Assembly (NCBI RefSeq): GCF_003334305.1
Contig: NZ_QOWS01000017.1
Strand: one strand, 5' to 3'
Origin: Escherichia coli
Lineage (GTDB): Bacteria; Pseudomonadota; Gammaproteobacteria; Enterobacterales; Enterobacteriaceae
DNA length: 64,000 nucleotides
Below the pieces are notes generated by a model, which was not told the DNA's origin, searched no databases, and saw only the letters and a program-made list of their open reading frames with translations. Positions 388-15,279 of this stretch are shown one piece after another. Numbering within the stretch: the stretch's first letter is position 1; each line of letters begins with the position of its first letter. Made by a program: the position numbers and the translations under genes.

Positions 388-2721
388 ATGAAAATGAACG
401 TAACCGCCACCGTCAGCCATGCACTCGGCCACTGGCCGCGTATTCTCCCGGCGCTGGGGATTCAGGTGCTGAAAAACCGTCATCAGCCCTGTCCGGTCTG
501 TGGCGGGAGTGACCGCTTCCGTTTTGATGACAGGGAGGGGCGCGGCACCTGGTACTGCAATCAGTGTGGTGCCGGTGACGGCCTGAAACTGGTTGAAAAG
601 GTGTTTGGTGTTTCCCCGTCCGACGCGGCCGCAAAGGTGGCTGCCGTGACCGGCAGCCTGCCACCGGCTGACCCGGCAGTGACGGCCGCCGCCGTTGCTG
701 AAACAGACGCTGCCCGGAAGAACGCCGCCACACTGGCACAAACCCTGATGGCGAAAACCCGTACCGGAACCGGTAACGCCTACCTGACCCGCAAGGGCTT
801 TCCCGGCCGGGAATGCCGGATGCTGACCGGCACACACAGAGCCGGTGGCGTGAGCTGGCGCGCCGGTGACCTTGTGGTGCCACTGTATGACGACAGCGGC
901 GAACTGGTTAACCTTCAGTTAATCAGTGCTGACGGCCGTAAGCGCACCCTGAAAGGCGGACAGGTCAGGGGCACCTGTCACACCCTTGAAGGACAGAATC
1001 AGGCCGGAAAACGTCTGTGGATAGCGGAGGGATACGCGACCGCACTTACCGTACATCACCTGACCGGTGAAACGGTGATGGTGGCGCTTTCTTCCGTGAA
1101 CCTCCTTTCTCTGGCCAGCCTTGCCCGGCAGAAGCATCCGGCCTGTCAGATTGTCCTTGCCGCAGACCGTGACCTCAGCGGTGACGGCCAGAAAAAAGCC
1201 GCCGCAGCCGCAGATGCGTGTGAGGGCGTTGTTGCCCTGCCGCCGGTCTTCGGTGACTGGAATGATGCCTTCACGCAGTACGGCGGGGAGGCCACCCGTA
1301 AGGCCATTTACGATGCCATCCGGCCACCGGCTGAAAGCCCGTTCGACACCATGAGCGAAGCAGAGTTTTCCGCCATGAGTACCAGCGAAAAGGCCATGCG
1401 TATCTATGAGCATTACGGTGAGGCGCTCGCGGTCGATGCCAACGGCCAGCTTCTGTCTCGCTATGAAAATGGTGTCTGGAAGGTGCTGCCGCCACAGGAC
1501 TTTGCCCGGGATGTGGCCGGGCTGTTTCAGCGTCTGCGCGCGCCGTTCTCCTCCGGGAAGGTGGCCTCCGTGGTGGACACCCTGAAGCTGATTATTCCGC
1601 AGCAGGAAGCCCCCTCCCGCCGCCTGATTGGCTTTCGTAACGGTGTGCTCGACACACAGAACGGCACGTTCCACCCGCACAGTCCGTCACACTGGATGCG
1701 CACCCTGTGCGATGTGGATTTCACCCCGCCGGTGGACGGTGAAACGCTGGAGACCCACGCCCCCGCGTTCTGGCGCTGGCTTGACCGTGCCGCCGGTGGC
1801 CGTGCGGAAAAACGCGACGTGATTCTGGCCGCACTGTTTATGGTGCTGGCAAACCGCTATGACTGGCAGCTCTTTCTGGAGGTGACCGGTCCCGGCGGCA
1901 GCGGCAAAAGTATCATGGCCGAAATAGCCACCCTGCTGGCCGGGGAGGATAACGCCACGTCGGCCACCATTGAGACGCTGGAATCCCCGCGTGAACGTGC
2001 CGCGTTAACTGGCTTCTCACTGATACGCCTGCCGGACCAGGAAAAATGGAGCGGCGACGGTGCCGGACTCAAGGCCATCACCGGCGGCGATGCGGTGTCC
2101 GTTGACCCGAAATACCGGGATGCATACTCCACGCATATCCCGGCGGTGATTCTGGCCGTGAACAATAACCCGATGCGCTTCACCGACCGCAGCGGCGGCG
2201 TGTCACGCCGGCGGGTGATTATTCACTTCCCGGAACAGATAGCCCCGCAGGAGCGCGACCCGCAGCTTAAGGACAAAATCACCCGCGAGCTGGCGGTCAT
2301 CGTGCGTCACCTGATGCAGAAGTTCAGCGACCCGATGCTCGCCCGGTCACTGCTTCAGTCCCAGCAGAACTCAGACGAGGCGCTGAACATCAAACGGGAT
2401 GCCGACCCGACGTTTGATTTTATCGGCTATCTGGAAACCCTGCCGCAGACCAGCGGCATGTATATGGGGAACGCCAGTATCATCCCGCGTAATTACCGTA
2501 AATACCTCTATCACGCCTATCTGGCCTACATGGAGGCAAACGGCTACCGGAATGTACTCAGTCTGAAAATGTTCGGGCTGGGGCTGCCGGTGATGCTGAA
2601 GGAATACGGACTGAATTACGAGAAGCGCCATACCAAACAGGGGATACAGACCAACCTGACGCTGAAAGAGGAAAGCTACGGCGACTGGCTGCCAAAATGT
2701 GACGACCCTGCAACAACCTGA
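388..2721 (+). CDS. P4 alpha-type bifunctional primase/helicase
   Basis: 777-aa ORF with AAGGAG RBS; N-terminal zinc ribbon CPVCGG...YCNQCG; Walker A GPGGSGKS at about aa 500; architecture and length match satellite phage P4 alpha as I recall it. Confidence 0.9.
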   Translation: MKMNVTATVSHALGHWPRILPALGIQVLKNRHQPCPVCGGSDRFRFDDREGRGTWYCNQCGAGDGLKLVEKVFGVSPSDAAAKVAAVTGSLPPADPAVTAAAVAETDAARKNAATLAQTLMAKTRTGTGNAYLTRKGFPGRECRMLTGTHRAGGVSWRAGDLVVPLYDDSGELVNLQLISADGRKRTLKGGQVRGTCHTLEGQNQAGKRLWIAEGYATALTVHHLTGETVMVALSSVNLLSLASLARQKHPACQIVLAADRDLSGDGQKKAAAAADACEGVVALPPVFGDWNDAFTQYGGEATRKAIYDAIRPPAESPFDTMSEAEFSAMSTSEKAMRIYEHYGEALAVDANGQLLSRYENGVWKVLPPQDFARDVAGLFQRLRAPFSSGKVASVVDTLKLIIPQQEAPSRRLIGFRNGVLDTQNGTFHPHSPSHWMRTLCDVDFTPPVDGETLETHAPAFWRWLDRAAGGRAEKRDVILAALFMVLANRYDWQLFLEVTGPGGSGKSIMAEIATLLAGEDNATSATIETLESPRERAALTGFSLIRLPDQEKWSGDGAGLKAITGGDAVSVDPKYRDAYSTHIPAVILAVNNNPMRFTDRSGGVSRRRVIIHFPEQIAPQERDPQLKDKITRELAVIVRHLMQKFSDPMLARSLLQSQQNSDEALNIKRDADPTFDFIGYLETLPQTSGMYMGNASIIPRNYRKYLYHAYLAYMEANGYRNVLSLKMFGLGLPVMLKEYGLNYEKRHTKQGIQTNLTLKEESYGDWLPKCDDPATT

Positions 2722-2728
2722 CCCACCT

Positions 2729-2754
2729 GACCGGCATCTGCCGGTCTTTTTTTA
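2729..2754 (+). terminator. rho-independent terminator after primase gene
   Basis: GACCGGC-atct-GCCGGTC hairpin followed by T7 run, 8 bp after the stop codon. Confidence 0.65.
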
Positions 2755-2770
2755 TCCCTGAATTCCCCGA

Positions 2771-3070
2771 AGGTGAACAATCCACTGTTCACCCTTCACC
2801 GTATATTCACCCGTTATCACACTGAAATTAAAAGAGAAAAACGAAAGGTGAACAGTGTGAACAATCAAATCAAAAAAAACTTTTTTCTTCCTGAGTGATT
2901 TCAGCACGGGAAATTAATCCCCTGCACAAGTCACACCGGCAGAATGCCGGAGGTGAAGAATCGAATGTTCACCCTTCACCCATTATTCACCACCTATCCA
3001 ACTGAAATAAAAGGAGAAAACAGAAAGGTGAACAGTGTGAACAGTTCTTTCGAAAAAAAATTTTTTTCTT
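2771..3070. repeat. crr-like replication region: two ~120-bp direct repeats carrying TGTTCACC/GGTGAACA octamers
   Basis: Units at 2771-2890 and 2951-3070 (period 180 bp) align nearly base for base; each has at least three copies of the P4 type I iteron octamer in both orientations and ends in an A8/T8 tract. Confidence 0.75.
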
Positions 3071-3184
3071 ATTTTTAATTGTGCGAAAAACAAGCGACAC
3101 ACGCAGTGTGTATAGATATGTGTATAGTTATATTTTTTGAATATTATAATGTATTACAAATCAATGTGTTAGCTTGTAATATTC

Positions 3185-3203
3185 ACTCCTATTATCGGCA
3201 CCA
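3185..3203 (+). other. att core copy (tRNA-Thr 3'-end-like, ACTCCTATTATCGGCACCA)
   Basis: 19-nt string matching the T-arm-to-CCA end of thrW as I recall it; no full tRNA upstream; second copy at 15262-15279. Confidence 0.6.
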
Positions 3204-3808
3204 TCAAGAAAATCAATAACTTAGCTTAACTTCTCTAAGAAATTGTATCTTCTGTTATCACTTACAAACGCCTATACGTTGTTATGGGCTTTGGTAGTGT
3301 AACACGTATGGGCGAGTAGTTCCCAGGCTCAACCTCGTAACAAGTTCCTTTGAAGCTGGAAGACGTGCCACCGTCTCTAAACCTTCTACCAAAACTCTTA
3401 GCAAGATGTTCCACACCTGGCGCGGTGTCCAATGATGCTACACGTCGTGAGACGTTGCAGAGGATAAACAGGCTAAATGATGGGAAGAGTTTTAAGTGCA
3501 ATAGTGGATTAAAGCCCACCTCTTCAAAACCTAACTTGATCGGGAAAGAATCAAGCTCTAGCACGGTTTCGTCCACCGGAGTACAACGGGTGCCTGATAA
3601 GAGAAGAACTGCTAAGACTTCATAGCTTTTGTGAAAAAGCCCTTTTTAGTGGATACGCCTACGGCGCTTATTTTTTGGTATAACCATCAAAGGCGCTTTA
3701 TGGCTCCTATTGTCTTGAAAATGTATCTTTACTTGTATTGTGTTTTATGCGTAGTCTCCCTGTGTAGTATGTAACTTGTTAATTTTCATATGAATACAGA
3801 GGCACACG

Positions 3809-3967
3809 ATGAAAAACATTGCAGCTATCAAACGGAATAACCGCAAGATTCACGCTCGTAAGTTCCTGTCTACGCCAGAAGGAAAAGCCTGGCTAGAGCG
3901 TAAACAGAGAGAAAACGAAGAAAGAAAACTCCTTAGTGAGTTGAAATGGCTTAGAGAGGATTTCTGA
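3809..3967 (+). CDS. small basic protein (52 aa), hypothetical
   Basis: ATG with AGAGG-like RBS; Lys/Arg-rich; below the size cut-off of the ORF track; translated by hand. Confidence 0.3.
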   Translation: MKNIAAIKRNNRKIHARKFLSTPEGKAWLERKQRENEERKLLSELKWLREDF

Positions 3968-4260
3968 AAATCTCCAGAACGCAACAGGACGCATTCTAAC
4001 GCTGTTTTCATTACTCGGTATAGGGATTATAGGTGATGTGTGTTTAATGCGTCTGTGAGCTTGTTTTGTGCCTTATTTTGCATTTTCATAATGCAGGAGA
4101 GAACACGGAAAGCCTTAAAATTAATTATTGGGGTATTTAAGGCTATTTTTAGGTTATTTAAGGGTATTAAACTTGATTTAATTGATTGAAATATAAACAG
4201 ATAATTATGTATCTTATTGATTTATAAGGTTATTTTTAAATAAAGGTAAATAAAAAATAA

Positions 4261-4300
4261 ATAGCCATAAATAGCTATAAATACATCTAAATACCTATAT
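4261..4300. repeat. four tandem 10-bp A-rich units (ATAGCCATAA / ATAGCTATAA / ATACATCTAA / ATACCTATAT)
   Basis: Read directly; 10-bp period equals the helical repeat, suggesting bent DNA or a phased binding site. Confidence 0.6.
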
Positions 4301-4713
4301 CCCTTCCCTTATGGCTAGATTGCGAGAAGTGCTTAACGCGATTTTCAGCGCCCCCCGATCTGGAAAATCCAGAATCCCCAAATATCAGCAAGGAATTTTC
4401 TTGCGTAATCAACATCGTTTTTACCTATTAAATCATTACACAGAAAGCCTTTCTGTAATGTCTCTCACTAAACTTTCACTAAACACGAGAATGATCGGTT
4501 TTATGTCGGATCAGATGCTAGAAATAGCACCACGTCTCACAAGGGCTGTAAGCGATGAAACCAGTGTTTATGCGGGTGCAGGTCAAAATATAGGCCAAAA
4601 TACATTTAACATAATAAACGTAATATGCACTAAGGAACACATAGAACGCCTTGAGTTGATGTATCAGGGGAAAAGTGGTGGATTTTTTACGTAGGAGCAC
4701 GAGAGGGCTTCTA

Positions 4714-4741
4714 TTGACTTTTGTATGCTATGAAATATAAT
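4714..4741 (+). promoter_or_regulatory. candidate sigma70 promoter (TTGACT-16-TATAAT)
   Basis: Consensus-like hexamers with 16-bp spacer; no convincing ORF downstream, so it may drive a non-coding transcript through the repeat region. Confidence 0.35.
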
Positions 4742-5088
4742 AGAAGGTTTTTTTATGTTGATAGTGATTGCACATTAAAGATTGAAAGCAAATTTAAACA
4801 TAAATTTTCAACACGTGAAAGAGAACTTGTTCGACAAATGATAAAACGTTTATTGAGCAACAATTTTGCAGTGATGCGCTATATGCCGAATTACACAAGG
4901 CTTTGCGAAAGTGATGTAAAAGTGAAGAAAGTAAGAATTGCAACTTTAAGCTACTTTTCATTGAATTTTTTAGTATGGAATTACACAGGAATAAGTTAGG
5001 GATATTCTATGATTTACACAGGGAATATAGGGGGATTATGGCACACACATAGAAAGACATTACACAAAGTGCTATGTGACAAATGGAT

Positions 5089-5300
5089 GTAACGAGAGGT
5101 TACATTCAGCTATCTGAAATGCTCTCTGTAAGAAAGTTGGTAGTAACGATATGTTACATAGACTAATTATTGAATGTAACGATATTACACATCGGTAGTA
5201 ACGATACGTTACATCGACTAATTATTGAATGTAACGATATTACACATCGGTAGTAACGATACGTTACATCGACAGATGATTGGATGTAACGAAAGGTTAC
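5089..5300. repeat. array of seven 15-bp palindromic sites GTAACGA(t/a)A(t/c)GTTAC (iteron/operator/centromere-like)
   Basis: Sites start at 5089, 5143, 5176, 5198, 5231, 5253 and 5286; spacings 54/33/22/33/22/33 bp are all near multiples of 11 bp; includes a 56-bp unit repeated in tandem. Confidence 0.8.
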
Positions 5301-6398
5301 ACAATAAGACTATATTATTTATAATACTAAATAAAACTATATTAGATTATTAATTAGATCATAATAATATTCTTTATATCTATATATATGATCTTTTGCC
5401 TTCCGGCGTTAGCTTCACTCCCTGGCAAGCAGCCTTACTCCGCTACCTTTCGGGCTACGTTGGCTGGCCCGTTCCGCTCACACCGAAAGCAAAGCGTTAC
5501 TTTCTTCGTGTAACTATCGTGGCGGTAACGCCCACGAAGAAATACTATTGCGCTGTGCGCAGAAGAGTAATCACCTAACCAATCATAGATTGCTTATGTG
5601 TTAACTCTCTCTACCTCTTAATTCCACTTCCTACATTTAATAACTCTGTTATTCTCTGTAGTTGTGTAATTACTCGAAGAGAGAGCGGCTAAAGCTCAAT
5701 TACACTCTGCTTTCCTCGTGTAAGTTCACTAAGCCTCAATACAATTTCACTTCCTACATTCTGTAGTCGTGTAATTGTTTTCGGTGGAAAAGCCAGAGGC
5801 GACACCGAAAGAGAATTCTGATCTTATTAATCTTATCTATCTTAGTTAATCTTCTTACTTTATCTACTTTATTATTAATAATAGCTTTATAAGCTCTGTG
5901 TAGCTCTCTGACGCAAGAAACAGCATTCAGGAAGGGAATCACCTTAGAAAAGGTGTTCTTTGCGTCATAATGTGTTTTATGAAGGATTCAGAGGTGTTTC
6001 ATAACAGGAATGTATAGAGGATATTTTAATTAATTAAAAATAAGGGGTCTAAATGCTTCTCTAACAACATTAAGCAGGGTAGGGAATGGAAACGCATTGC
6101 CTACATATAATAAGCTCACTACAGGGCTTTACAGAGCGTTTTATAAAGTGACTCTCTGTTTTATATTTACCATTACCTTTTCATATACCTAACAAATACA
6201 AAATAAGCCCCTTCAATAAGCCTCTGGCGAGCGAAACAGCCATTAGATAAGGGAATGTATTGCTTTTATCAAAATCTCGTCAGAATGCGATTGAGAGTGT
6301 TTTAGCGGATAATGAAGAATAGCACTACATAGAAGAGCACGAATTGTTAAGCAAAATCATAACATACTGAAAAAGATCAGTTTTTTTGTGAAAAGGTA

Positions 6399-6427
6399 TT
6401 GACAAACGTCTCTTTCTGTGCAATAAT
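6399..6427 (+). promoter_or_regulatory. candidate sigma70 promoter (TTGACA-17-AATAAT) for the cargo operon
   Basis: Consensus -35 and near-consensus -10; about 125 nt upstream of the first RBS-preceded ORF, with a hairpin-rich leader. Confidence 0.5.
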
Positions 6428-6554
6428 AGGTATTAGAGGGGACAGGAATAGATTCTTATCCTCTAAATAATTAAACCAATGCACCGCACTTTGAAGCCCA
6501 AGAGGCTTGCAAGGTGTTTTTTCTTTTAACCAAATCGAATAAGGAGGCTAATTA

Positions 6555-6731
6555 ATGAAATATTTCACTCCACAGGATGTAGTAGAAGCCTGGAAACGTG
6601 GTGAGATCAACCGCTTTAAAGTAAGGATGTATAGAAACACCGCTCGCCGTTGTGGTTATCCAGAGCGTGAAAAATGTTTTGACGATGCACTGAAAATTAT
6701 TGATGAACTGCGTAAAGCTGAGAAAGAATAA
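6555..6731 (+). CDS. hypothetical small protein (58 aa)
   Basis: AAGGAGG RBS 6 nt upstream of ATG; first gene after the promoter; translated by hand. Confidence 0.5.
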   Translation: MKYFTPQDVVEAWKRGEINRFKVRMYRNTARRCGYPEREKCFDDALKIIDELRKAEKE

Positions 6732-6753
6732 TAGACAAGAGAAGGAGAAAACT

Positions 6754-6921
6754 ATGAGCGAAACTAAGAAACCAATTCCGCGCACTTACCTTCACGTTGA
6801 CCCTGAAATCTTCAAGGTTTTATTTGCTGAAGCCAAGAAAAGGCAAATTATGGTCAGTGATTTGATGTTAGAAATCATTACTGAAGCAGCAGAGAACATC
6901 AAACAAAAAAAGGGTAAGTGA
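6754..6921 (+). CDS. ribbon-helix-helix-like DNA-binding protein (55 aa)
   Basis: GAAGGAG RBS; N-terminal beta-strand-like segment (RTYLHV) followed by two short helices, an Arc/CopG-type pattern; inferred from sequence pattern only. Confidence 0.5.
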   Translation: MSETKKPIPRTYLHVDPEIFKVLFAEAKKRQIMVSDLMLEIITEAAENIKQKKGK

Positions 6922-6974
6922 TCCTCATTCACTTTAGTAGCGCATTAAGCGTGATTTATAAGGAGATGATTCTA

Positions 6975-7718
6975 ATGTCTAAAATTAAATTGATTCGTGA
7001 AAAATACCAGTATGTTGATAAACAAACAGGAGAAATTAAAGACCGAACTTTGAATATACCGCATTACTTTTGTGAGATTGAATTTATCTACTCCTCAAGT
7101 GTTGATGGTGGAAAAGTTAAGTTTAGTGCAGAAATGCAAAAATTATATTGCTATGTTTCAGATTGGGAGAAATCAGGGGGGATATGTTTTGAAACACAAA
7201 CGAAGTTAAGTAAAGTTTGTGGCTGTAGCCGTAAGACAGTTAATGAACTGATTGGTCTTATGATTAAAATCGGTCTTTTAGAAGAGGTCGGAGAACGAAT
7301 TCCAAAACGTCCTTTAAAATTACGTGCGCTACCTCTCACAGATGCACATATTACTCCCCCAGGAGAATCATCACTCTCTGATCTTTCTGAGGCAGAAGAA
7401 GCACAGGAACAACCTAAAGGCCATAAACAGCCTTCTTTTGATGTTCTTGATGATTGGGATGCGCCTTTACCGTGGGAGACGGAAGAAACACCTGTTTCAT
7501 CAAGTGAAAAGGTAGCTAATGATAATGAGGAGGATGTATTAGAGAATTTTGCCTCTCTTATCATCCAGGAGAAACACACAAGAACAGGAGGAGCATCATT
7601 TATTGAGTTTGCAAATTCACTAGCTTATAGATACGGGCTAAAACGACCAAATGGTATTGAGGCATATTTTTCTAAGAATTACCCAAATGTATATGATGAA
7701 TTTGATATTCCCTTTTAA
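6975..7718 (+). CDS. winged-helix DNA-binding protein with acidic linker (247 aa), possible replication initiator or regulator
   Basis: AAGGAG RBS; helix-turn-helix-like segment LSKVCGCSRKTVNELIGLMIKIGLLEE; Asp/Glu-rich middle; stop overlaps the next RBS. Confidence 0.55.
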   Translation: MSKIKLIREKYQYVDKQTGEIKDRTLNIPHYFCEIEFIYSSSVDGGKVKFSAEMQKLYCYVSDWEKSGGICFETQTKLSKVCGCSRKTVNELIGLMIKIGLLEEVGERIPKRPLKLRALPLTDAHITPPGESSLSDLSEAEEAQEQPKGHKQPSFDVLDDWDAPLPWETEETPVSSSEKVANDNEEDVLENFASLIIQEKHTRTGGASFIEFANSLAYRYGLKRPNGIEAYFSKNYPNVYDEFDIPF

Positions 7719-7748
7719 TAAGGAGGACTATGATTCAATATTTAGTAA

Positions 7749-8009
7749 AAAAATCAAGTAGACAGAATTCAGTGTAATGACACAGGAAAACGCATCTACG
7801 AAACACTTGCTTACCTCTATAAAGGAAAGCCAACACCGCTAAAATATAGCGATGTGTTACATCGAGCAGGGTGCTCTGAAGCTGGTTTAAAATTCTGGCT
7901 GAAACAGCTATCAAATTTCGGTGTTATTGAAATGAAAGAGCTGTCTTTTTCTACATTCAATCTCAAAAGATTAGATAAAGAAATAGAATTCATCTATTCC
8001 ACTCTCTAA
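7749..8009 (+). CDS. second winged-helix-like ORF lacking a canonical start (frameshift/slippage or pseudogene candidate)
   Basis: Open frame encoding ...YSDVLHRAGCSEAGLKFWLKQLSNFGVIEM...; an AGGAGG-ATG at 7730 opens a 15-codon ORF in another frame that crosses an A7 run (7747-7753) directly before this frame opens. Confidence 0.3.
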   Translation, partial: KNQVDRIQCNDTGKRIYETLAYLYKGKPTPLKYSDVLHRAGCSEAGLKFWLKQLSNFGVIEMKELSFSTFNLKRLDKEIEFIYSTL

Positions 8010-8141
8010 AATCTCTCTATGTAATTAAAATATAAAAGGAAAACATTATTATGATAGTAGCTATGTATTGGTTATTGTTCTTTCTCACGTTAGAAGCATA
8101 CTTTGGGGTGTTTTCCTTTAAAAGAAAAGGAAAAGTAAATA

Positions 8142-8558
8142 ATGGCAAAAAGAAAAAACAACGTTGTTAAGAAAATCGGTGATTCAGCTTCTCTTCTAAG
8201 TAAACCTAAACCTAAATCTATTCTAAGACGTAAAGACTTTAAAGAGCTAGTTACGCTCACCAAGCAAAATAGCGCCCCTGGCGAATGGAAAACAGAGATC
8301 ATAGAACATTCTCCCTCTGTGCCTTGTGGAGATGAATTTAACGCCTTGCAAGAAATCTTATCTTCAACACCTGGCGTATTCTGGAAACCTAGAAAAAGAA
8401 AAGAGTATATCGTTGATAGCTCTGATTTACGCAAATACCAGATTTTAGGATTTGAAGATTATAACCACTACGTCGGTTATCTCGCCACCAATGGCCTAAA
8501 TAATTTAGTTCCTGAATTCCAAATTTTAGATAATGCTGATCACTATGGAGACTTTTAA
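8142..8558 (+). CDS. hypothetical protein (138 aa), basic N-terminus
   Basis: ATG preceded by AAAGGAAAAG; no motif recognised. Confidence 0.5.
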   Translation: MAKRKNNVVKKIGDSASLLSKPKPKSILRRKDFKELVTLTKQNSAPGEWKTEIIEHSPSVPCGDEFNALQEILSSTPGVFWKPRKRKEYIVDSSDLRKYQILGFEDYNHYVGYLATNGLNNLVPEFQILDNADHYGDF

Positions 8559-8559
8559 T

Positions 8560-8898
8560 ATGAACAAAAACACGTATGACACAATTTATTCACTAATTAA
8601 TTATTATGAGGATGATTACCTCCTGCCTTTAAACCGCGCTGAACTTGAAGCATACAAAGAAAACACGCCAGGGGCGCTAAATGAGGCGTTTAAACACTGG
8701 GATTTAGCTGTGAATGCCTTTGAGCACCTTTCTAAAAGAGTAGAGATGCTCTGTAAGCGTGAAAACGCATACCTGACAGCCGATCAGATATGGGAGCTAT
8801 CAAACTGGATAGAAGATATTGAATCTGATGTTCGCTATGTAGGGGATGGCCTGGTTGAATTAGCTCAACGCTTAGGCGCTACTATCACAGAAGAATAA
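8560..8898 (+). CDS. hypothetical acidic protein (112 aa)
   Basis: ATG 8560 with GGAG 7 nt upstream, 1 nt after the previous stop; an in-frame upstream ATG at 8533 would overlap the previous gene. Confidence 0.5.
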   Translation: MNKNTYDTIYSLINYYEDDYLLPLNRAELEAYKENTPGALNEAFKHWDLAVNAFEHLSKRVEMLCKRENAYLTADQIWELSNWIEDIESDVRYVGDGLVELAQRLGATITEE

Positions 8899-8927
8899 AA
8901 AAAGCAACAAAAAAGTTGTAAAATATC

Positions 8928-8956
8928 TTGACATTCCATCTATTGTATGTTAATAT
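8928..8956 (+). promoter_or_regulatory. candidate sigma70 promoter (TTGACA-17-TAATAT)
   Basis: Consensus -35; located in a 350-bp gap inside the operon. Confidence 0.45.
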
Positions 8957-9093
8957 AATTATATAGGGGTGATTATTTTTCCTTTATTGGTTCGATATTA
9001 AAAATTCTTCCTGTCATTAAAGGGGAGTAAAATCTCCGCTCCCCGCTTCTCCTCCTTAAGTAAATACTGTGTCATTATACCTCTTTTTTCCTT

Positions 9094-9125
9094 TGTTATG
9101 CATACATCTTGGAGTATGCATAACA
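9094..9125. promoter_or_regulatory. 12-bp perfect inverted repeat TGTTATGCATAC-N8-GTATGCATAACA (operator or RNA hairpin)
   Basis: Read directly; lies between the 8928 promoter and the next gene. Confidence 0.6.
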
Positions 9126-9165
9126 TAGGGTAATTACATAGGTATGAGTTAATAAAAGGCGGCTC

Positions 9166-9189
9166 TAAATGCTGCCTTTTATTTTGCCC
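9166..9189 (+). terminator. weak intrinsic terminator or attenuator
   Basis: AGGCGGC-tctaaat-GCTGCCT stem with one G-U pair, followed by TTTTATTTT. Confidence 0.4.
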
Positions 9190-9247
9190 GTTATGCAACT
9201 TAAAAGTTGTATTTCTTACTTTAAAAAAGGTAACAAGGTTTATATAA

Positions 9248-9460
9248 ATGTTGTTTTTAAACGATAAAGAGCAAATCATCAAGTATAAAGATGAAATGCT
9301 GAAAATTAATCCACAAATTACCGAAATGGTAGCTAAATACGCTGGGTGTTCTGTCGAGGAAGTAGAAAGATGTGTTGAAAAATATTTTTCTCCTTCTACT
9401 CCGTCTACACCTTCCCTTAATGAATTAATCAAATTAAAAGCTAAGGAGATTACTAAATGA
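9248..9460 (+). CDS. hypothetical protein (70 aa)
   Basis: ATG with AAGG upstream; stop overlaps the start of the next gene (ATGA). Confidence 0.5.
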   Translation: MLFLNDKEQIIKYKDEMLKINPQITEMVAKYAGCSVEEVERCVEKYFSPSTPSTPSLNELIKLKAKEITK

Positions 9461-9819
9461 TTATTGATTTAGACACTCTGTTTCCAGTTAGAAAGACTTT
9501 CACAGATATTGTAAGTTATTGTACTGATCCGTTTGCCTCTGTAGAAAGCAAGGTTTTTGCTTCTCTTCCTGCTGATGTTGAGTGCGGCGACTTGATCACC
9601 AGTACTGGCGCTAAATATGAATCAGGAGATGATATCTATGTTGTTATGAGTGAATTTGTAACGGCTGGAGAAAACAAGCCTGTAGATGTGCTACGTAGTA
9701 ATGCTGGTCTTGTCTGCATCAAAGCTGATGCGCTGAATGCTGTAAGTGAAGCAGCAAAAACAGCATTAATTAAAAAAGGCTTCCAGCTTGAAGGGTTCCA
9801 TTCTGTTTTCACTTCTTAA
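9457..9819 (+). CDS. hypothetical protein (120 aa)
   Basis: AAGGAG RBS; translationally coupled to the upstream ORF. Confidence 0.55.
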   Translation: MIIDLDTLFPVRKTFTDIVSYCTDPFASVESKVFASLPADVECGDLITSTGAKYESGDDIYVVMSEFVTAGENKPVDVLRSNAGLVCIKADALNAVSEAAKTALIKKGFQLEGFHSVFTS

Positions 9820-9837
9820 TAAAAGGAATAATAATAA

Positions 9838-10869
9838 ATGATTCTAGGTAATGATTACGTTGATTTAGCTCCGCTTTTCCAGGCACACAGCACTAGAAAC
9901 TTTCTGCTCTCTACCCTCGACTTCACTGATCCGGTGGGCGTTAGTTCTCATAAAGTAGCTGTTTCTCAGCTTGTCGAAAGCAACGAATCTCTGTTCAACA
10001 AAGAAACCTCTCGTTTCTCTTCTGAACACAATGTTACTAAGCGTGAACAAGGTAAAGAATGGCTGATTGAAATCCCGTATTTTCTTCGTGAAGATGTGAT
10101 CCGTCCTTCTGATGTTCAAGGCAAGCGTAAGCCTGGCACTGATTTTCAGGAAACACTCACTGATATCTATGCGGAATATATCGCTAAACACCACGTAGCG
10201 TATCAGCGTACAAAAGAGAGCGTGTTGGCTGCATCTCTGTTTAGCGGTAAAACTTACACGCCTAAAACTGATGATGTTCTTATCGAGTGGGGCAAGCTGT
10301 TTAACGTGGCACCTATGAAAGCCACCTTGAACGCTTCCAGCACTGACACAATGACCGTTTTCAAGCAATTTGACCAGCTTGCTACGGATATGATTGCTAA
10401 GGCACAAAACCAGGCTGCAACCATTGAGCGTGTTGTTGTGTTCTGTAAACCTGCGGCATTCAACGCTATTCGTTACAGTGTTGGTATGGTCAATGCTTTC
10501 CAATATGCAAGCCCTGTAGACGATGCCAACGTGGTGTTTAATGTGCGTTCCCTGCTACCAGGTGTAACTACTTTCACCATTCCAGGAACTAACATTGACC
10601 TGATCAAAGTGACTGATCCGCTACACCTTGCACATATGGCTTCTGATGCGGTTGCTGTGCCTAAATTCGCTAAGGGGGCAGGTGTTTACCAATCTATCTA
10701 TGGGGCAGCTTCCAGCACCTTTGAACTGATCAATGCCGCTCCTGCTGAGGTGTATAGCTATAGCTATGAATCTTCTTCTCGTGGTGATGCTGTTAACGTT
10801 GTTACAGAGAATAGCCAGATGGTGGTAAACCACGGCGTTGGTTTCTCCGTTCAAATCACTGTTAAATAA
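9838..10869 (+). CDS. hypothetical protein (343 aa), no motif recognised
   Basis: Long ORF in AT-rich DNA with AAGGA RBS; followed by a strong terminator. Confidence 0.65.
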   Translation: MILGNDYVDLAPLFQAHSTRNFLLSTLDFTDPVGVSSHKVAVSQLVESNESLFNKETSRFSSEHNVTKREQGKEWLIEIPYFLREDVIRPSDVQGKRKPGTDFQETLTDIYAEYIAKHHVAYQRTKESVLAASLFSGKTYTPKTDDVLIEWGKLFNVAPMKATLNASSTDTMTVFKQFDQLATDMIAKAQNQAATIERVVVFCKPAAFNAIRYSVGMVNAFQYASPVDDANVVFNVRSLLPGVTTFTIPGTNIDLIKVTDPLHLAHMASDAVAVPKFAKGAGVYQSIYGAASSTFELINAAPAEVYSYSYESSSRGDAVNVVTENSQMVVNHGVGFSVQITVK

Positions 10870-10887
10870 TATTTTAACGTGTAATAG

Positions 10888-10925
10888 AGGCGTGGCGTGA
10901 ATAACACGCTTCGCCTTTTTTTATT
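10888..10925 (+). terminator. rho-independent terminator
   Basis: Nested hairpin AGGCG-tg-GCGTG-aataa-CACGC-tt-CGCCT followed by a T-rich run. Confidence 0.65.
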
Positions 10926-10955
10926 TATTTTTAAATTTTGAGAGGTGATTAAAAT

Positions 10956-11159
10956 ATGGAAGTGATTCTGAAATCAAAAAATGGTGTACACGTTTATTTA
11001 GATGCTAATGATTCAAGAGGCTTGTTAAATCTGAAATATCTATGTTCTCTCTTGGATGTTCCATATGAAGGCGTAAAAGCCCGAATGTTCAGATTAAACG
11101 AGAGTATTGATCAAGCTCTACACCATTTCTTAAGCAAAGAAGGTGGTAAAAATGATTAA
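10956..11159 (+). CDS. hypothetical protein (67 aa)
   Basis: GAGAGGTGA RBS; 15 bp upstream of the 612-aa gene. Confidence 0.45.
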   Translation: MEVILKSKNGVHVYLDANDSRGLLNLKYLCSLLDVPYEGVKARMFRLNESIDQALHHFLSKEGGKND

Positions 11160-11173
11160 TAAGGGGATTTTAA

Positions 11174-13012
11174 ATGTTAGAAATTAACACTTCTAAAATT
11201 AAGAACACAGTAACATTTAGTGTAGATAAAGACAGCTTGAAAAAAGCGAAAGACTCTATTACAGGCTTAAAGGAATTCACAGAAAACATCAAGCCAGCTA
11301 AATTAAGGTTTGATAGTGTCACTAAAGGCTATAAGAAAGCACAAAGCGAAGTAGACAAGATTGCTCAACAGAAAGCTAAAACAGAAAAGCAGAATCAAAG
11401 AGCACAAGCTGCCGCAGCAAGAGCACAGGCAAGGCAACAGACACAAATAGCAGCACGTAAAGAGAAAGCAGAATTAAAGCTCCTCGATGTGTCAAGCTCT
11501 ATCAGTGCAATGCACCGCCTCTCTGTAGCGGAACAATACAAAGCTATTGCACAGGCTAGAGAGATAGCAAAACAATATGAGCAAGGGGCTATCTCGCTTG
11601 CACGTATGAATAGTCAGATGAAACGCCTACAACAGCAACAACGTAAGATTAATGGCAACAGAAAAGCTCAATTAGCCCCCGTTAAGGGAGGAGGATCAGG
11701 GAATTCCGCCACGATGGGTGCTCTGTTATTTGGAGGCGCTACAGCGGCTGCTGGCGTGATGGCTGTTAGTAAAGCGTCGGAGTTTGTTAGTAACAGTTTC
11801 GCTAACGCAGAGACACAAGGTGAGCTAATTCAACGTGCAAGGCTTGGCGGTGTAGACGTTAACCAGATGTACAACATTACAGAATGGGCCTATAGAAACG
11901 GCGTTGACTCTATGATGGGTGATCAAGGGGCTAGGAAATACCTGGATCAGATGAAAGATGTTAGGGAACGTGCCGCAAAATCCTATAGTGAAGCTGAATA
12001 TGTAGTCGATAAAAAAACTGGTAAAGGCGGCGAATGGAAAGGCGGTGATAACGCTATTAATGAACTTCTAAACATCGGTGTTATTAACAAGAGCGACCTT
12101 AAAAAATTTGCTGATAATCCAGCCGGATTAATTTCTAAGGCTGTTAATGGAATGATGAAAAAAGGGTTTTCAGACTCCCAAATTGGACAACGTTTAGAAG
12201 ACCTGGGTGATGATTTGATGCTTACATCAAAATATTGGCAACGTTCCGTTAAAGATGTACAAACAAGCATCGAGCAGCAAAAAGCCTCTGGAAAATGGCT
12301 AACAGAAACACAGCAAGATTCTATTGTTAAATTCAGAGAACTAAACAGACAGCTTTCACAGCTTTCTGATGCAAGACAAGTAGCATTTGTAGACGGCTTT
12401 ATGAAATCTCTCGATCCAAAAGTAACGGAAGAGTTTATGAAAAACCTTTCTAATCTCACTCCGTATTTTACAAAGCTGGGAGAAGCTACAGGAAGTCTCT
12501 TTGAAGCTATTATGAAGATTGTAAACTGGTTTAATCGTAATGATGATAAGACAGATGCTATTCAGAAAAATTTAGGTGATGCACCGCCATTAAGCAATGA
12601 AGGAATGAAACAGAATCTTTCTAATCTCGTTCCTGATCAATATAAAGGCGCTGGCACCGGAACAACTAAGCCAGATAACAGCAATTCCCTGTTTAACACT
12701 ATTAAGGGATTGCTTTTCGATGATAAGTCTTCTTCTGTGTCAGATGTAAAAATGTCAGTCAGCGAAGCACCGATAACCAATCTCAAACAGGGCGCTTTAA
12801 ATAATCTTGCAATGACAACTCCGGCTTATAATTTATCTCCTGTGTTTAATCTGAATCCTACATTTGAAGTGGTAACAGAGGTTCCTCTTACTATTAATTC
12901 TGACACATCAAGATTAAGCGATTATGTGGATTTTACAGCGAGATCAAGTCGGGATAGCTTCTTGAAATCATTAACATTAACCAGCTTATCAGGACAATCT
13001 AACGGCGGGTAA
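11174..13012 (+). CDS. large coiled-coil protein with central Gly-rich hydrophobic segment (612 aa); tape-measure-like or membrane-interacting, function unknown
   Basis: AAGGGG RBS; N-terminal approx. 150 aa rich in Q/A/R/K/E; segment GGGSGNSATMGALLFGGATAAAGVMAV; no NTP-binding or catalytic motif seen. Confidence 0.7.
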   Translation: MLEINTSKIKNTVTFSVDKDSLKKAKDSITGLKEFTENIKPAKLRFDSVTKGYKKAQSEVDKIAQQKAKTEKQNQRAQAAAARAQARQQTQIAARKEKAELKLLDVSSSISAMHRLSVAEQYKAIAQAREIAKQYEQGAISLARMNSQMKRLQQQQRKINGNRKAQLAPVKGGGSGNSATMGALLFGGATAAAGVMAVSKASEFVSNSFANAETQGELIQRARLGGVDVNQMYNITEWAYRNGVDSMMGDQGARKYLDQMKDVRERAAKSYSEAEYVVDKKTGKGGEWKGGDNAINELLNIGVINKSDLKKFADNPAGLISKAVNGMMKKGFSDSQIGQRLEDLGDDLMLTSKYWQRSVKDVQTSIEQQKASGKWLTETQQDSIVKFRELNRQLSQLSDARQVAFVDGFMKSLDPKVTEEFMKNLSNLTPYFTKLGEATGSLFEAIMKIVNWFNRNDDKTDAIQKNLGDAPPLSNEGMKQNLSNLVPDQYKGAGTGTTKPDNSNSLFNTIKGLLFDDKSSSVSDVKMSVSEAPITNLKQGALNNLAMTTPAYNLSPVFNLNPTFEVVTEVPLTINSDTSRLSDYVDFTARSSRDSFLKSLTLTSLSGQSNGG

Positions 13013-13046
13013 TTCCCGCCATAACATTACAAGGAAAATTATTATT

Positions 13047-13760
13047 ATGGCGACCGCCGGGATTTTAACCATACGTGCAGCAAATACTCCAGAACAACAC
13101 GTTCAGGCTGTTTACAAAGCAGAACAAGATATAAATTCTACAAAAAACGAAAATAGCAAAGCTAATAAAACAAAAGGAGAGAACGGATTTGCTATTGTTA
13201 CCAGTGGCTTGGCATCTTCTGGCAATGACGTTTATGAAAATTATATGGCCCTGGCCTTTGACAGTGTAGACGATGTGAACGTGAGACGTTCGGCAGATGT
13301 CACAAGCTACCCCGTAGAAAATGGTGCTACTGTGTCTGATCACGTTCAAATTAAAAACAATAAGTTTTCTCTTAAAGGAAGGATCACTGAAACACCGATT
13401 AAAAGCGATCCTGGCTTGTTAAAGAGTGCAGGGGTGAACGGGAACAGAAGATCATTAGCCATAGACTACTTGAATCAGATTATGGACAGTAGACAGCCTT
13501 TTCTTCTTGTTACAGAAAATAAAACTTTTGAGAACGTTGTTTTAACAGGCATCGAATACACAGAAGAGGCAAGCGAATCCCTGGTATTTGATCTTAGCTT
13601 TGAGCAGATCAGATTAGTTTCTTATGGCACTGTATCCACTATTGCACTTAAAACACAACCATCTAAGAACATCGGGGCGAATATGAAAAAACGTGTTAAC
13701 ACTGAAAAATCAAGTAGTGAAGGTGAAGACACTATTACTCCTGCCTTTAAGCAGAAATAG
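13047..13760 (+). CDS. hypothetical protein (237 aa)
   Basis: AAGGA RBS; last gene of the + strand operon, convergent with the integrase. Confidence 0.6.
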   Translation: MATAGILTIRAANTPEQHVQAVYKAEQDINSTKNENSKANKTKGENGFAIVTSGLASSGNDVYENYMALAFDSVDDVNVRRSADVTSYPVENGATVSDHVQIKNNKFSLKGRITETPIKSDPGLLKSAGVNGNRRSLAIDYLNQIMDSRQPFLLVTENKTFENVVLTGIEYTEEASESLVFDLSFEQIRLVSYGTVSTIALKTQPSKNIGANMKKRVNTEKSSSEGEDTITPAFKQK

Positions 13761-13803
13761 CCGTAAACGCCTCTAAAACGCTCTGTAACGATGTAATTAT
13801 AAA

Positions 13804-13840
13804 AGAGGCTGCCAATCTATGTTGAAGCCTCTTTATTGTG
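13804..13840. terminator. bidirectional terminator between convergent operon and integrase
   Basis: AGAGGCT-N15-AGCCTCT hairpin flanked by T-rich runs on both strands. Confidence 0.5.
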
Positions 13841-13841
13841 T

Positions 13842-15176: not shown

Positions 15177-15218
15177 AGAAAATGATAATTTTTCTATAAG
15201 ATTCAATCAATTAGTAAT

Positions 15219-15279
15219 GGTCGTAGGTGATGGCATTAACACGAGATTAATCGAGTGTTTTACTCCTATTATCGCACCA
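15219..15279 (+). pseudogene. tRNA-Thr 3'-half remnant (ptwF-like) containing the right att core copy
   Basis: GGTCGTAGGT, then a 33-nt unrelated insert, then ACTCCTATTATCG-CACCA; not a foldable tRNA. Confidence 0.55.

What the first reader, a model, noticed from the sequence alone, without database searches (positions are those of the whole stretch)
4889..5800. Further repeat families and GC-rich hairpin segments in the 3-kb control region
Four copies of TTACACA(A/G)(G/A)G lie at about 4891, 4981, 5014 and 5061; TTACAC is also the variant half-site in the palindrome array, so these may be isolated half-sites. A GC-rich 170-bp segment (5396-5570) contains a long hairpin TTCTTCGTG-N24-CACGAAGAA. 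A ~40-bp unit TTCACTTCCTACATT...CTGTAG...GTGTAATT recurs at ~5620-5690 and ~5744-5785, each with CTACA...TGTAG inverted repeats. With the phased A-tract repeats at 4261-4300 this makes a ~3 kb region with almost no convincing genes, like a plasmid or phage origin/control region, or a source of small RNAs.
Basis: seen in the sequence. Interest (0 to 1): 0.4.

Follow-up and report, generated by a model that had tools for sequence, protein, structure and literature searches.

The report
Replication origin of a phage-satellite-like island
The repeats and hairpins are real and lie beside the replication origin of a 12-kb mobile island in the E. coli chromosome that is probably a parasite of phi92-type phages; most of them are one short DNA box that points toward the origin's melting region from both sides.

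Summary
All three observations are real, with small coordinate corrections. The window is E. coli chromosome. Positions 3204-15261 form a low-GC island at tRNA-Thr, bounded by att repeats and carrying a lambda-O-like initiator (6975-7718).

The neighbouring palindrome array holds that initiator's iterons. In 26 of 26 typed relatives, five iteron families pair with five initiator N-domains. A 92-bp stretch of 13% GC (5302-5393) follows the array.

The TTACACA copies, the 5' arm of the TTCTTCGTG hairpin and the 3' arms of both 40-bp units belong to one box family, TTACACR. Eight boxes lie on the + strand left of the AT-rich stretch and four on the - strand right of it. In 70 relatives the counts are 351:9 on the left and 0:225 on the right. 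The boxes are kept whatever the iteron type, so they are not initiator half-sites.

The GC-rich block is non-coding because of frequent 1-nt indels, and is 98-99.7% identical across islands. Its alternative version (module B, TTGCACR boxes) always accompanies a different initiator C-domain.

Best reading: cis-acting origin-flanking elements. A structured RNA is not excluded. The island family appears undescribed and is probably a satellite of phi92-like phages.

The parts
3185..3203 (+). attL: copy of the 3' end of tRNA-Thr (thrW), left boundary of the island. attR is at 15262-15279.
   Evidence: ACTCCTATTATCGGCACCA matches the last 19 nt of thrW, and ACTCCTATTATCG-CACCA recurs at 15262-15279 next to the integrase.
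4436..4442 (+). Outlying TTACACA box, + strand
4891..5066 (+). Four TTACACA boxes (4891-4897, 4981-4987, 5014-5020, 5060-5066), all on the + strand.
   Evidence: The segment 4858-5112 is kept at 82-95% identity in islands of all five iteron/initiator types.
5084..5301 (.). Array of seven TGTAACG-N-CGTTACA palindromes, the type-1 iterons of the island initiator. It holds three more + strand TTACACA boxes at 5185, 5240 and 5297.
   Evidence: family D1. Proximal iteron type matches the initiator N-domain in 26/26 loci.
5302..5393 (.). AT-rich stretch (13% GC), the presumed DNA unwinding element. The boxes reverse polarity across it.
   Evidence: Composition, polarity.
5394..5570 (.). GC-rich non-coding block. 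Its nearly invariant core is 5465-5565. CCGCTCACACCGAA (5474-5487) and TGCGCTGTGCGCA (5549-5561) are also present in the otherwise unrelated module B.
   Evidence: Mean pairwise identity is 0.984-0.997, against 0.80 in the first gene. 1-nt indels are at high frequency and the ORF is not conserved. Shared blocks.
5502..5541 (.). Hairpin TTCTTCGTG (5502-5510) / CACGAAGAA (5533-5541) with apex GGCG-GTAA-CGCC (5521-5532). Its 5' arm overlaps a - strand box (5507-5513).
   Evidence: Variants are indels in the internal loop, G/A at the first loop base and one U-G-compatible change.
5620..5671 (.). 40-bp unit, copy 1. It is an imperfect inverted pair AATTCCAC ... GTGTAATT around CTACA/TGTAG, and its 3' arm is a - strand box (5663-5669).
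   Evidence: The 17-nt insert is absent in L006.
5710..5723 (-). CTTTCCTCGTGTAA, a second copy of the 5500-5513 motif, containing a - strand box (5717-5723)
   Evidence: (D20)
5743..5776 (.). 40-bp unit, copy 2. Its 3' arm is a - strand box (5768-5774).
   Evidence: L025-type islands carry only one unit, through a deletion between the two copies.
5779..5811 (.). Hairpin TTTCGGTG / CACCGAAA closing the conserved block. ACACCGAAAG also occurs at 5480-5489.
   Evidence: and direct reading
6975..7718 (+). Replication initiator (247 aa) with three parts: a variable N-terminal HTH domain, a C-domain of type A, and a C-terminal ...DEFDIPF tip
   Evidence: PHROG replication initiation / O-like families, E 7.5e-7. 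Pfam HTH_36, E 2.7e-4. Modular structure.

Best explanation
Positions 4889-5800 are the flanks of the vegetative replication origin of a 12-kb integrative island (3204-15261).

The core of the origin is the array of palindromic iterons (5084-5301), bound by the variable N-terminal HTH domain of the island's lambda-O-like initiator, followed by a 92-bp, 13%-GC unwinding stretch (5302-5393).

This layer is a 7-bp box, TTACACR, placed many times on the top strand to the left of the unwinding stretch and on the bottom strand to its right, so that every box points at the unwinding stretch. The four TTACACA repeats are left-hand boxes. The 5' arm of the TTCTTCGTG hairpin, the CTTTCCTCGTGTAA repeat and the 3' arms of the two 40-bp units are the right-hand boxes.

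Between the unwinding stretch and most right-hand boxes lies a nearly invariant, non-coding, hairpin-prone GC block.

Inferred mechanism, not shown: an origin-associated protein reads the oriented boxes and organises the DNA on both sides of the melted stretch. Candidates are the initiator's type-A C-domain or a product of the downstream type-A genes. The GC block would be the place where helicase and primase are brought in. The initiator's C-terminal DIPF tip looks like the SSB tail that recruits PriA, DnaG and the chi subunit.
For: Shown:
- Island limits and att repeats.
- The initiator matches O-like families and HTH_36.
- Five iteron families pair with five initiator N-domains in 26/26 loci, in both module backgrounds.
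- 12 of 19 TTACACR matches in the window lie in 1.3 kb, eight on + to the left and four on - to the right of the AT-rich stretch.
- The same polarity holds in 70 distinct related loci: left 351 on + and 9 on -; right 0 on + and 225 on -.
- Module A has 153/153 TTACACR right-hand boxes and module B has 72/72 TTGCACR. Left-hand G-variant boxes are enriched in B, 64/126 against 34/225.
- Module type always accompanies its own initiator C-domain type (46 of 47 A records and all 26 B records), although 1.2-1.9 kb of shared DNA lies between them.
- The block 5394-5815 has 97.5-99.8% mean pairwise identity, against 80-95% for DNA to its right.
- Frequent 1-nt indels and a non-conserved ORF exclude coding.

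From the literature:
- The lambda origin is four 18-bp iterons plus a 38-bp AT-rich stretch (PMC3349717).
- Replicons of the Vibrio cholerae phage satellite PLE are a RepA plus a cognate iteron origin in a non-coding region, and the two covary (PMC8263062).
- DDDIPF is the conserved SSB C-terminal interaction motif (PMC5872125).
Against: - No protein has been shown or predicted to bind the boxes.
- The small RHH-like protein (6754-6921) is invariant between A and B, so it does not explain the A/G box change.
- Module type also travels with the whole downstream gene set, so linkage rather than function could explain part of its association with the initiator C-domain.
- Related loci are close relatives, so box counts are not independent events. 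The real replication of the pattern is A versus B.
- Hairpin conservation is weak. In 18 records the 5' arm of the CTTTCGG/CCGAAAG hairpin loses a base without compensation.
- Near-identity of the block could partly reflect recent recombinational spread.
- Nothing here shows that replication starts at this place.
Confidence: 0.55

Rival explanations
1. The GC-rich block and the hairpin units (about 5394-5815) are transcribed into a structured non-coding RNA. This could be a regulator of island or helper genes, as SviR is in the Vibrio cholerae phage satellite PLE or CI RNA in P4. It could instead be a primer or R-loop RNA that activates the origin. On this reading the boxes are incidental parts of its stems.
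For: - Both strands fold better than shuffles: + strand -122.9 kcal/mol, z -4.6; - strand -152.5 kcal/mol, z -6.4.
- The block is a GC-normal patch between AT-rich DNA (13% and 23% GC) and is almost invariant.
- Modules A and B share a colinear layout of hairpin, variable hairpin and GCGC-TGT-GCGC.
- The few stem changes seen are G-U-compatible on the + strand.
- A promoter-like site (GTTACA-18-TATAAT, 5296-5325) overlaps the last iteron and reads into the region.
Against: - No Rfam family matches at E<=1.
- No terminator is conserved on either strand, and the promoter-like site exists only with type-1 iterons.
- The 40-bp hairpin units are absent from module B while the boxes persist as a variant.
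- One hairpin arm varies without compensation.
- Strand preference is contradictory between modules A and B.
- There is not enough sequence diversity for a covariation test.
- No complementarity to the leader exceeds shuffles.
Confidence: 0.25
2. The oriented boxes are operators or packaging signals rather than replication elements. They could be sites for a repressor or activator that controls island induction. They could also be terminase small-subunit sites of a pac region, as in the hexamer sets on both sides of P1 pac.
For: - The island carries, 530 bp to the left (4314-4359), a 46-bp copy of the phi92 terminal-repeat boundary at 93.5% identity.
- Sets of short oriented repeats on both sides of a central site are known from pac sites (from memory).
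- The island has no recognisable repressor gene.
Against: - The boxes bracket the iterons and the AT-rich stretch exactly.
- The phi92-like site is missing from 17 of 50 A and 25 of 32 B records that still have the boxes.
- There is no cluster of boxes in a phi92-like genome, at most 4 per kb.
- The main gene promoter (6399-6427) lies 600 bp beyond the last box.
Confidence: 0.13
3. The repeats are relics without present function. They would be leftovers of an ancestral type-1 iteron array and of recombination joints created by the shuffling of iteron cassettes.
For: - Relatives carry patchworks of single iterons of foreign types left of the active array.
- TTACAC is also the variant half of two type-1 iterons.
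Against: - Box polarity is absolute in two unrelated module types, and the right-hand box variant is all-or-none.
- Identity is 97.5-99.8% where neighbouring non-coding DNA is 88-95%.
Confidence: 0.05

Closest known systems
Bacteriophage lambda ori / O protein (lambdoid theta origins)
   Same: - Several palindromic roughly 18-bp iterons lie next to an AT-rich stretch (PMC3349717).
- The initiator has a specificity-determining N-terminal domain and matches O-like PHROG families.
- Iterons and N-domain are exchanged together between relatives.
   Different: - The origin lies 1.7 kb upstream of the initiator gene, not inside it.
- No P-like helicase loader was found.
- There is an extra layer of oriented TTACACR boxes and a 170-bp conserved GC block.
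- The initiator ends in an SSB-like DIPF tip.
PLE, a phage satellite of Vibrio cholerae (helper phage ICP1): RepA plus an origin in a large non-coding region
   Same: - It is an integrated island of similar size, linked to a virulent myovirus.
- The origin, with semi-palindromic iterons, sits in a multi-kb non-coding region.
- The replicon is modular and the initiator N-domain covaries with the iterons (PMC8263062, PMC7145576).
   Different: - PLE RepA has a RepA_N domain, which is a different family.
- No oriented flanking boxes are reported there.
- The present island encodes its own capsid protein, a tape-measure homologue and a baseplate homologue.
- Helper dependence is untested here.
RSF1010 oriV (iterons, GC-rich and AT-rich stretches, then ssiA/ssiB hairpins); primosome assembly sites of ColE1-type plasmids (from memory)
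   Same: Conserved hairpin-forming DNA lies directly beside the unwinding stretch of an iteron origin. In those plasmids the hairpins act in single-stranded form as priming sites.
   Different: - There is no sequence similarity, and no island-encoded primase.
- Hairpin conservation here is only partial.
- Function as a priming site is pure inference.
Initiator boxes of opposite polarity around an unwinding element: E. coli oriC DnaA-box subcomplexes, P1 oriR DnaA boxes at both ends, archaeal ORB elements (from memory)
   Same: Asymmetric short boxes lie in opposite orientation on the two sides of the unwinding element.
   Different: Only 3 of the 12 boxes are within one mismatch of TTWTNCACA, and no perfect DnaA box lies in 4400-5900.

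Membership tests
Iteron-type theta origin with lambda-O-like initiator | Initiator protein homologous to O-like / HTH replication initiators | tested here: met
   PHROG 270, 391, 345 and 678 (replication initiation, O-like), best E 7.5e-7. Pfam HTH_36, E 2.7e-4. Both matches are weak but consistent.
Iteron-type theta origin with lambda-O-like initiator | Tandem repeated binding sites next to an AT-rich unwinding stretch | tested here: met
   Seven palindromes at 5084-5301, then 92 bp of 13% GC.
Iteron-type theta origin with lambda-O-like initiator | Specific pairing of iterons and initiator DNA-binding domain | tested here: met
   Five iteron types match five N-domain types in 26/26 loci with none discordant. 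This is comparative evidence only; binding was not tested.
Iteron-type theta origin with lambda-O-like initiator | Origin inside the initiator gene, plus a P-like helicase loader (lambda proper) | tested here: not met
   The origin is 1.7 kb upstream of the gene. No loader-like match was found among ten island proteins.
Iteron-type theta origin with lambda-O-like initiator | Replication actually initiates here | not testable with these tools
   Needs a replication assay or start-site mapping.
DnaA boxes | Match to TTATNCACA / TTWTNCACA | tested here: not met
   Only the boxes at 5012, 5183 and 5238 come within one mismatch, and none is perfect in 4400-5900.
Known structured RNA family (Rfam) | Covariance-model match | tested here: not met
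   cmscan of 2500-8000, both strands, E<=1: no match. No tRNA or tmRNA.
Novel structured non-coding RNA | Compensatory base changes, conserved promoter and terminator, a transcript | tested here: inconclusive
   Fold z-scores are -4.6 and -6.4. Diversity is too low for covariation and one stem arm is not conserved. Transcripts cannot be tested here.
Protein-coding gene over the GC block (ORF 5396-5578; WP_001323649.1 in a relative) | Reading frame conserved among relatives | tested here: not met
   From the same start, products run from 38 to 92 aa in several different frames. 32 of 56 records stop at 38 aa, and 1-nt indels are common.
Phage satellite (helper-dependent island) | Integrase and att sites, own replicon, helper-derived packaging or morphogenesis functions | tested here: met
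   - att repeats and integrase and a replicon.
- A 46-bp copy of the phi92 terminal-repeat boundary.
- A tape-measure homologue (31-54% identity) and a baseplate homologue (61% identity, E 1e-81) of adjacent phi92-like genes.
- A capsid protein.
Phage satellite (helper-dependent island) | Induction, replication and transfer depend on a helper phage | not testable with these tools
   Needs infection experiments. No paper on such an element was found in the held library.

The most novel reading that the evidence does not exclude
The island is the first member of an undescribed family of E. coli satellites that parasitise virulent phi92-type (Stephanstirmvirinae) phages, an E. coli counterpart of the Vibrio cholerae phage satellite PLE. 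Its origin would use a new architecture with four elements:
- swappable iteron and N-domain cassettes;
- a strictly polar box family converging on the unwinding stretch;
- a conserved module matched to the initiator's C-domain;
- an initiator that carries an SSB-tail mimic to pull host primosome proteins, or helper replication proteins, onto the origin.
Probability: 0.35. Interest if true: 0.75.

Novelty: new variant of a known kind. Interest (0 to 1): 0.55.

Why it matters
DNA similar to this region occurs in about 14-16% of complete E. coli genomes (752-872 of 5426), yet these stretches carry almost no annotation.

If the reading is right, the 'gene-less' 3.4 kb is the working cis-acting core of a mobile element (attachment arm, helper-like end site, origin). 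The element would belong to a kind so far known in Vibrio (PLE) but not described for virulent coliphages, which are candidates for phage therapy.

The strict box polarity and the two independent layers of covariation give clean, cheap experiments on how such an origin is recognised and fired. One layer pairs iterons with the initiator N-domain, the other pairs module type with the C-domain.

Tried and rejected
- **Rfam, tRNA and tmRNA scans** found nothing.
- **Coding reading of the GC block** is rejected by indels and a non-conserved frame.
- **Boxes as half-sites of the type-1 iteron** is rejected, because they persist with four other iteron/initiator types.
- **DnaA boxes** are rejected for most copies.
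- **Derivation from the helper phage.** Only the 46-bp site at 4314-4359 matches a phi92-like genome. There is no box cluster and no match to the GC block.
- **Invertible segment driven by the serine recombinase seen in some relatives.** All similar segments in about 40 loci lie in the same orientation as the window, so there is no sign of inversion.
- **RHH-like gene 2 as the box reader** shows no covariation with the box variant. Gene 1 types correlate only loosely.
- **Pairing between module A RNA and the gene leader** is not better than shuffles.
- **Search for more divergent versions for covariation.** The species-representative genomes gave 3 loci, all Escherichia-like. IMG/VR gave 25 contigs and metagenomes about 60 genuine contigs, all of module A or B with only trivial variation.
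- **Identification with the O157 prophage CP-933H/Sp1** is rejected. The Sakai thrW locus carries other elements.
- **Global alignment of modules A and B** is not credible apart from two short colinear blocks.

Full report
**Where the region is.** The window is E. coli chromosome and is 100% identical to strain A7. Positions 388-2721 encode a P4-type primase, followed by P4 crr-like repeats. At 3185-3203 there is a 19-nt copy of the 3' end of tRNA-Thr (thrW), and the same sequence minus one base recurs at 15262-15279 beside a tyrosine integrase.

The DNA between these copies (3204-15261, 12.06 kb, about 36-40% GC) is therefore a second integrative island sitting in tandem with the P4-like element. 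In other strains it sits directly at thrW, or at a tRNA-Gly. Its first 3.35 kb carries a single annotated 52-aa ORF. All other genes run rightward from 6555, and the integrase reads leftward at the far end. The finding (4889-5800) lies in the middle of that gene-poor stretch.

**The observation.**
- TTACACA(A/G)(G/A)G matches exactly at 4891, 5014 and 5060. The 4981 copy ends in A. These are the only matches in 64 kb, where 0.38 are expected.
- The GC-rich segment is real: 0.60 and 0.48 GC after 92 bp of 0.13 GC.
- The hairpin arms are at 5502-5510 and 5533-5541 with a 22-nt spacer, not 24.
- The two 40-bp units are at 5620-5671 and 5743-5776.

**The neighbouring palindromes are iterons, so this is an origin.** The 247-aa protein at 6975-7718 matches phage replication-initiation and O-like families (best E 7.5e-7) and Pfam HTH_36.

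I collected relatives from complete E. coli genomes, IMG/VR, species-representative genomes and metagenomes. In these, similarity to the window breaks at two places at once: the palindrome array (about 5112-5320) and the first 117 codons of the initiator (6977-7325).

Reading the sequences shows five unrelated palindromic repeat families, each lying directly left of the AT-rich stretch and each paired with its own initiator N-domain. In all 26 distinct loci where both could be typed, the two agree (T1 6, T2 8, T3 4, T4 7, T5 1). This is the pattern known from the lambda origin (PMC3349717) and from the replicons of PLE, a phage satellite of Vibrio cholerae (PMC8263062). Binding and initiation themselves are not shown.

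**The TTACACA copies are not initiator half-sites.** The segment that carries them (4858-5112) is kept at 82-95% identity in islands of all five types.

With the shorter core TTACACR, 12 of the window's 19 matches fall in 4436-5774. Eight lie on the + strand (4436, 4891, 4981, 5014, 5060, 5185, 5240, 5297), all left of the AT-rich stretch. Four lie on the - strand (5507, 5663, 5717, 5768), all right of it.

The three observations are therefore largely one box family whose polarity flips across the unwinding stretch.

In 70 distinct related loci, counting TTRCACR, the left side has 351 boxes on + and 9 on -, and the right side has 0 on + and 225 on -. These loci are close relatives, so the counts are not independent. 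However, the rule holds in two versions of the right-hand DNA that are otherwise unalignable (next section).

Only three boxes come within one mismatch of a DnaA box. A phi92-like genome has no cluster of them.

**The GC block and two module types.** Right of the AT-rich stretch, relatives carry either module A (as in the window, about 5394-6130) or an unrelated module B of about 480-570 bp.

Within module A, 5394-5815 is 97.5-99.8% identical on average, and 99.7% in 5471-5565. DNA to its right falls to 88-95%, and the first gene to 80%.

The block is not coding:
- 1-nt indels are frequent at six positions.
- The ORF 5396-5578, annotated once in a relative, gives products of 38-92 aa in several frames.

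Modules A and B share only two colinear short blocks, CCGCTCACA(C/A)CGAA and TGCGCTGTGCGC, 69-75 nt apart. A pattern built from them finds only this island family in IMG/VR, and only A- or B-type cores among the genuine metagenome hits.

Both modules can draw a hairpin ending in CCGCTCACA, a variable hairpin, and GCGC-TGT-GCGC. The structural signal is weak, however:
- In 18 records the 5' arm of the first hairpin loses a base with no compensation.
- The 40-bp units do not exist in module B.
- L025-type islands have one unit instead of two.

What does persist in module B is the box, as a variant. All 72 right-hand boxes of B are TTGCACR and all 153 of A are TTACACR. The G variant is also enriched among left-hand boxes of B (64/126 against 34/225).

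**A second covariation.** The initiator has three parts. After the variable N-domain comes a C-domain of two kinds. Type A is found in 46 of 47 module-A records (three of them with an internal deletion, and one record with a third type). Type B is found in all 26 module-B records, one of which has a different C-terminal end.

Between the module and the C-domain lie 1.2-1.9 kb that A and B islands share at 85-92% identity (leader, two small genes, N-domain). N-domains T1, T3 and T4 occur in both backgrounds. Recombination in this stretch is evidently frequent.

The unbroken association therefore suggests that the module works with a type-specific factor, either the C-domain itself or a product of the downstream genes, which also differ between A and B. 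That caveat (linkage to the whole downstream set) cannot be removed here.

Nearly all initiators (all but one B record) end in D/S-I/L-P-F (window...YDEFDIPF), like the SSB C-terminal motif DDDIPF that contacts DnaG, PriA and others (PMC5872125). The resemblance is read from the sequence and is untested.

**RNA or DNA?** Rfam finds nothing at E<=1. Both strands of 5390-5820 fold better than shuffles (+ z -4.6, - z -6.4). Module B folds better on the + strand and module A slightly better on the - strand. The few stem changes are G-U-compatible on +.

A promoter-like site overlaps the last type-1 iteron and points into the region, but it is not present with other iteron types, and no terminator is conserved.

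I therefore rank the DNA-level reading first (0.55), meaning oriented boxes plus a conserved entry or priming block beside the unwinding stretch. The structured-RNA reading is a live rival (0.25).

**Context: a probable satellite of phi92-type phages.**
- Window 4314-4359 is 93.5% identical to phi92 positions 363-318, which straddle the inner boundary (343/344) of the 343-bp left terminal repeat. The same match occurs in 54 Justusliebigvirus-type records.
- The 612-aa protein has phage homologues only among tape-measure proteins of Stephanstirmvirinae.
- That protein and the next one (61% identity, E 1e-81) match two adjacent genes of a phi92-like genome.
- The island also has its own capsid protein.
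- The end-like site is present in 33 of 50 A and 7 of 32 B records with enough upstream DNA.

I found no paper describing such an element in the held library. The O157 prophages at thrW are different elements. Helper dependence is an inference.

**Verdict.** The origin is a new variant of a known kind: a lambda/PLE-like iteron origin with an added polar box layer and a module matched to the initiator C-domain.

Noticed in passing
window 4314-4359: This 46-bp stretch is 93.5% identical to phi92 positions 363-318, which span the inner boundary of the 343-bp left direct terminal repeat. It matches 54 phi92-like phage records and is a candidate helper terminase or end site. It is present in many relatives but not all.
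   Followed up: partly
window 11174-13760: The 612-aa tape-measure-like protein and the 237-aa 'baseplate' protein are homologues (31-54% and 61% identity) of two adjacent genes of a phi92-like genome, in the same order. A 343-aa capsid protein lies upstream at 9838-10869. The island seems to carry its own versions of helper tail parts.
   Followed up: partly
window 7695-7718 (end of the initiator): Nearly all initiator variants, of both C-domain types, end in D/S-I/L-P-F, resembling the E. coli SSB C-terminal interaction motif DDDIPF.
   Followed up: partly
window 388-3184: A P4-like satellite lies directly upstream (777-aa alpha primase at 388-2721; crr-like GGTGAACA repeats at 2750-3050). 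Two different satellite-like elements therefore sit in tandem at thrW. In strain A7 the P4-like element also carries a nuclease/UvrD-helicase pair next to its integrase.
   Followed up: partly
L005 2075-2614, L006 2075-2614, L007 3161-3712 (slot equivalent to window 4387-4820): Some relatives carry a roughly 180-aa serine recombinase on the - strand in this slot. phi92 itself encodes a resolvase/invertase (gp053). No inverted arrangement was seen among about 40 loci.
   Followed up: partly
window 5906-5967 and 6222-6290: Two copies of a hairpin unit CTCTG(A/G)CG...AAACAGC...GGGAAT...CGTCA occur here. Related copies exist in module B islands. Function unknown.
   Followed up: no
window 6399-6525: A near-consensus promoter (TTGACA-17-AATAAT with TG) is followed by a hairpin AAGCC-N5-GGCTT and a T-run just before the first gene (6555). 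In relatives the stem is kept while the loop differs. It could be an attenuator or a short leader RNA.
   Followed up: no
L002, L004, L010, L025 and others, 300-900 bp left of the AT-rich stretch: Relatives carry patchworks of several iteron families in tandem, including second AT-rich stretches. Only the array nearest the module matches the resident initiator. These look like traces of repeated cassette exchange.
   Followed up: partly
window 3204-3962: The left end of the island, next to attL, includes a roughly 48% GC patch at 3260-3640 and a 52-aa ORF. It is 98-99% identical in all thrW-integrated relatives and different in tRNA-Gly-integrated ones. It is probably the attP arm that goes with the integrase.
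   Followed up: no
L005 3724-3900 (equivalent to window 5397-5573): RefSeq annotates a 58-aa hypothetical protein (WP_001323649.1) over the GC block. The frame is not conserved among relatives, so the call is probably spurious.
   Followed up: yes
phage records MG065639.1 and relatives; locus L023: Records named 'Campylobacter phage A150/A145/C3/A110a' are Justusliebigvirus genomes (marked UNVERIFIED). A contig of a MAG labelled Bacillota carries this Escherichia island, which is probably a binning error.
   Followed up: no
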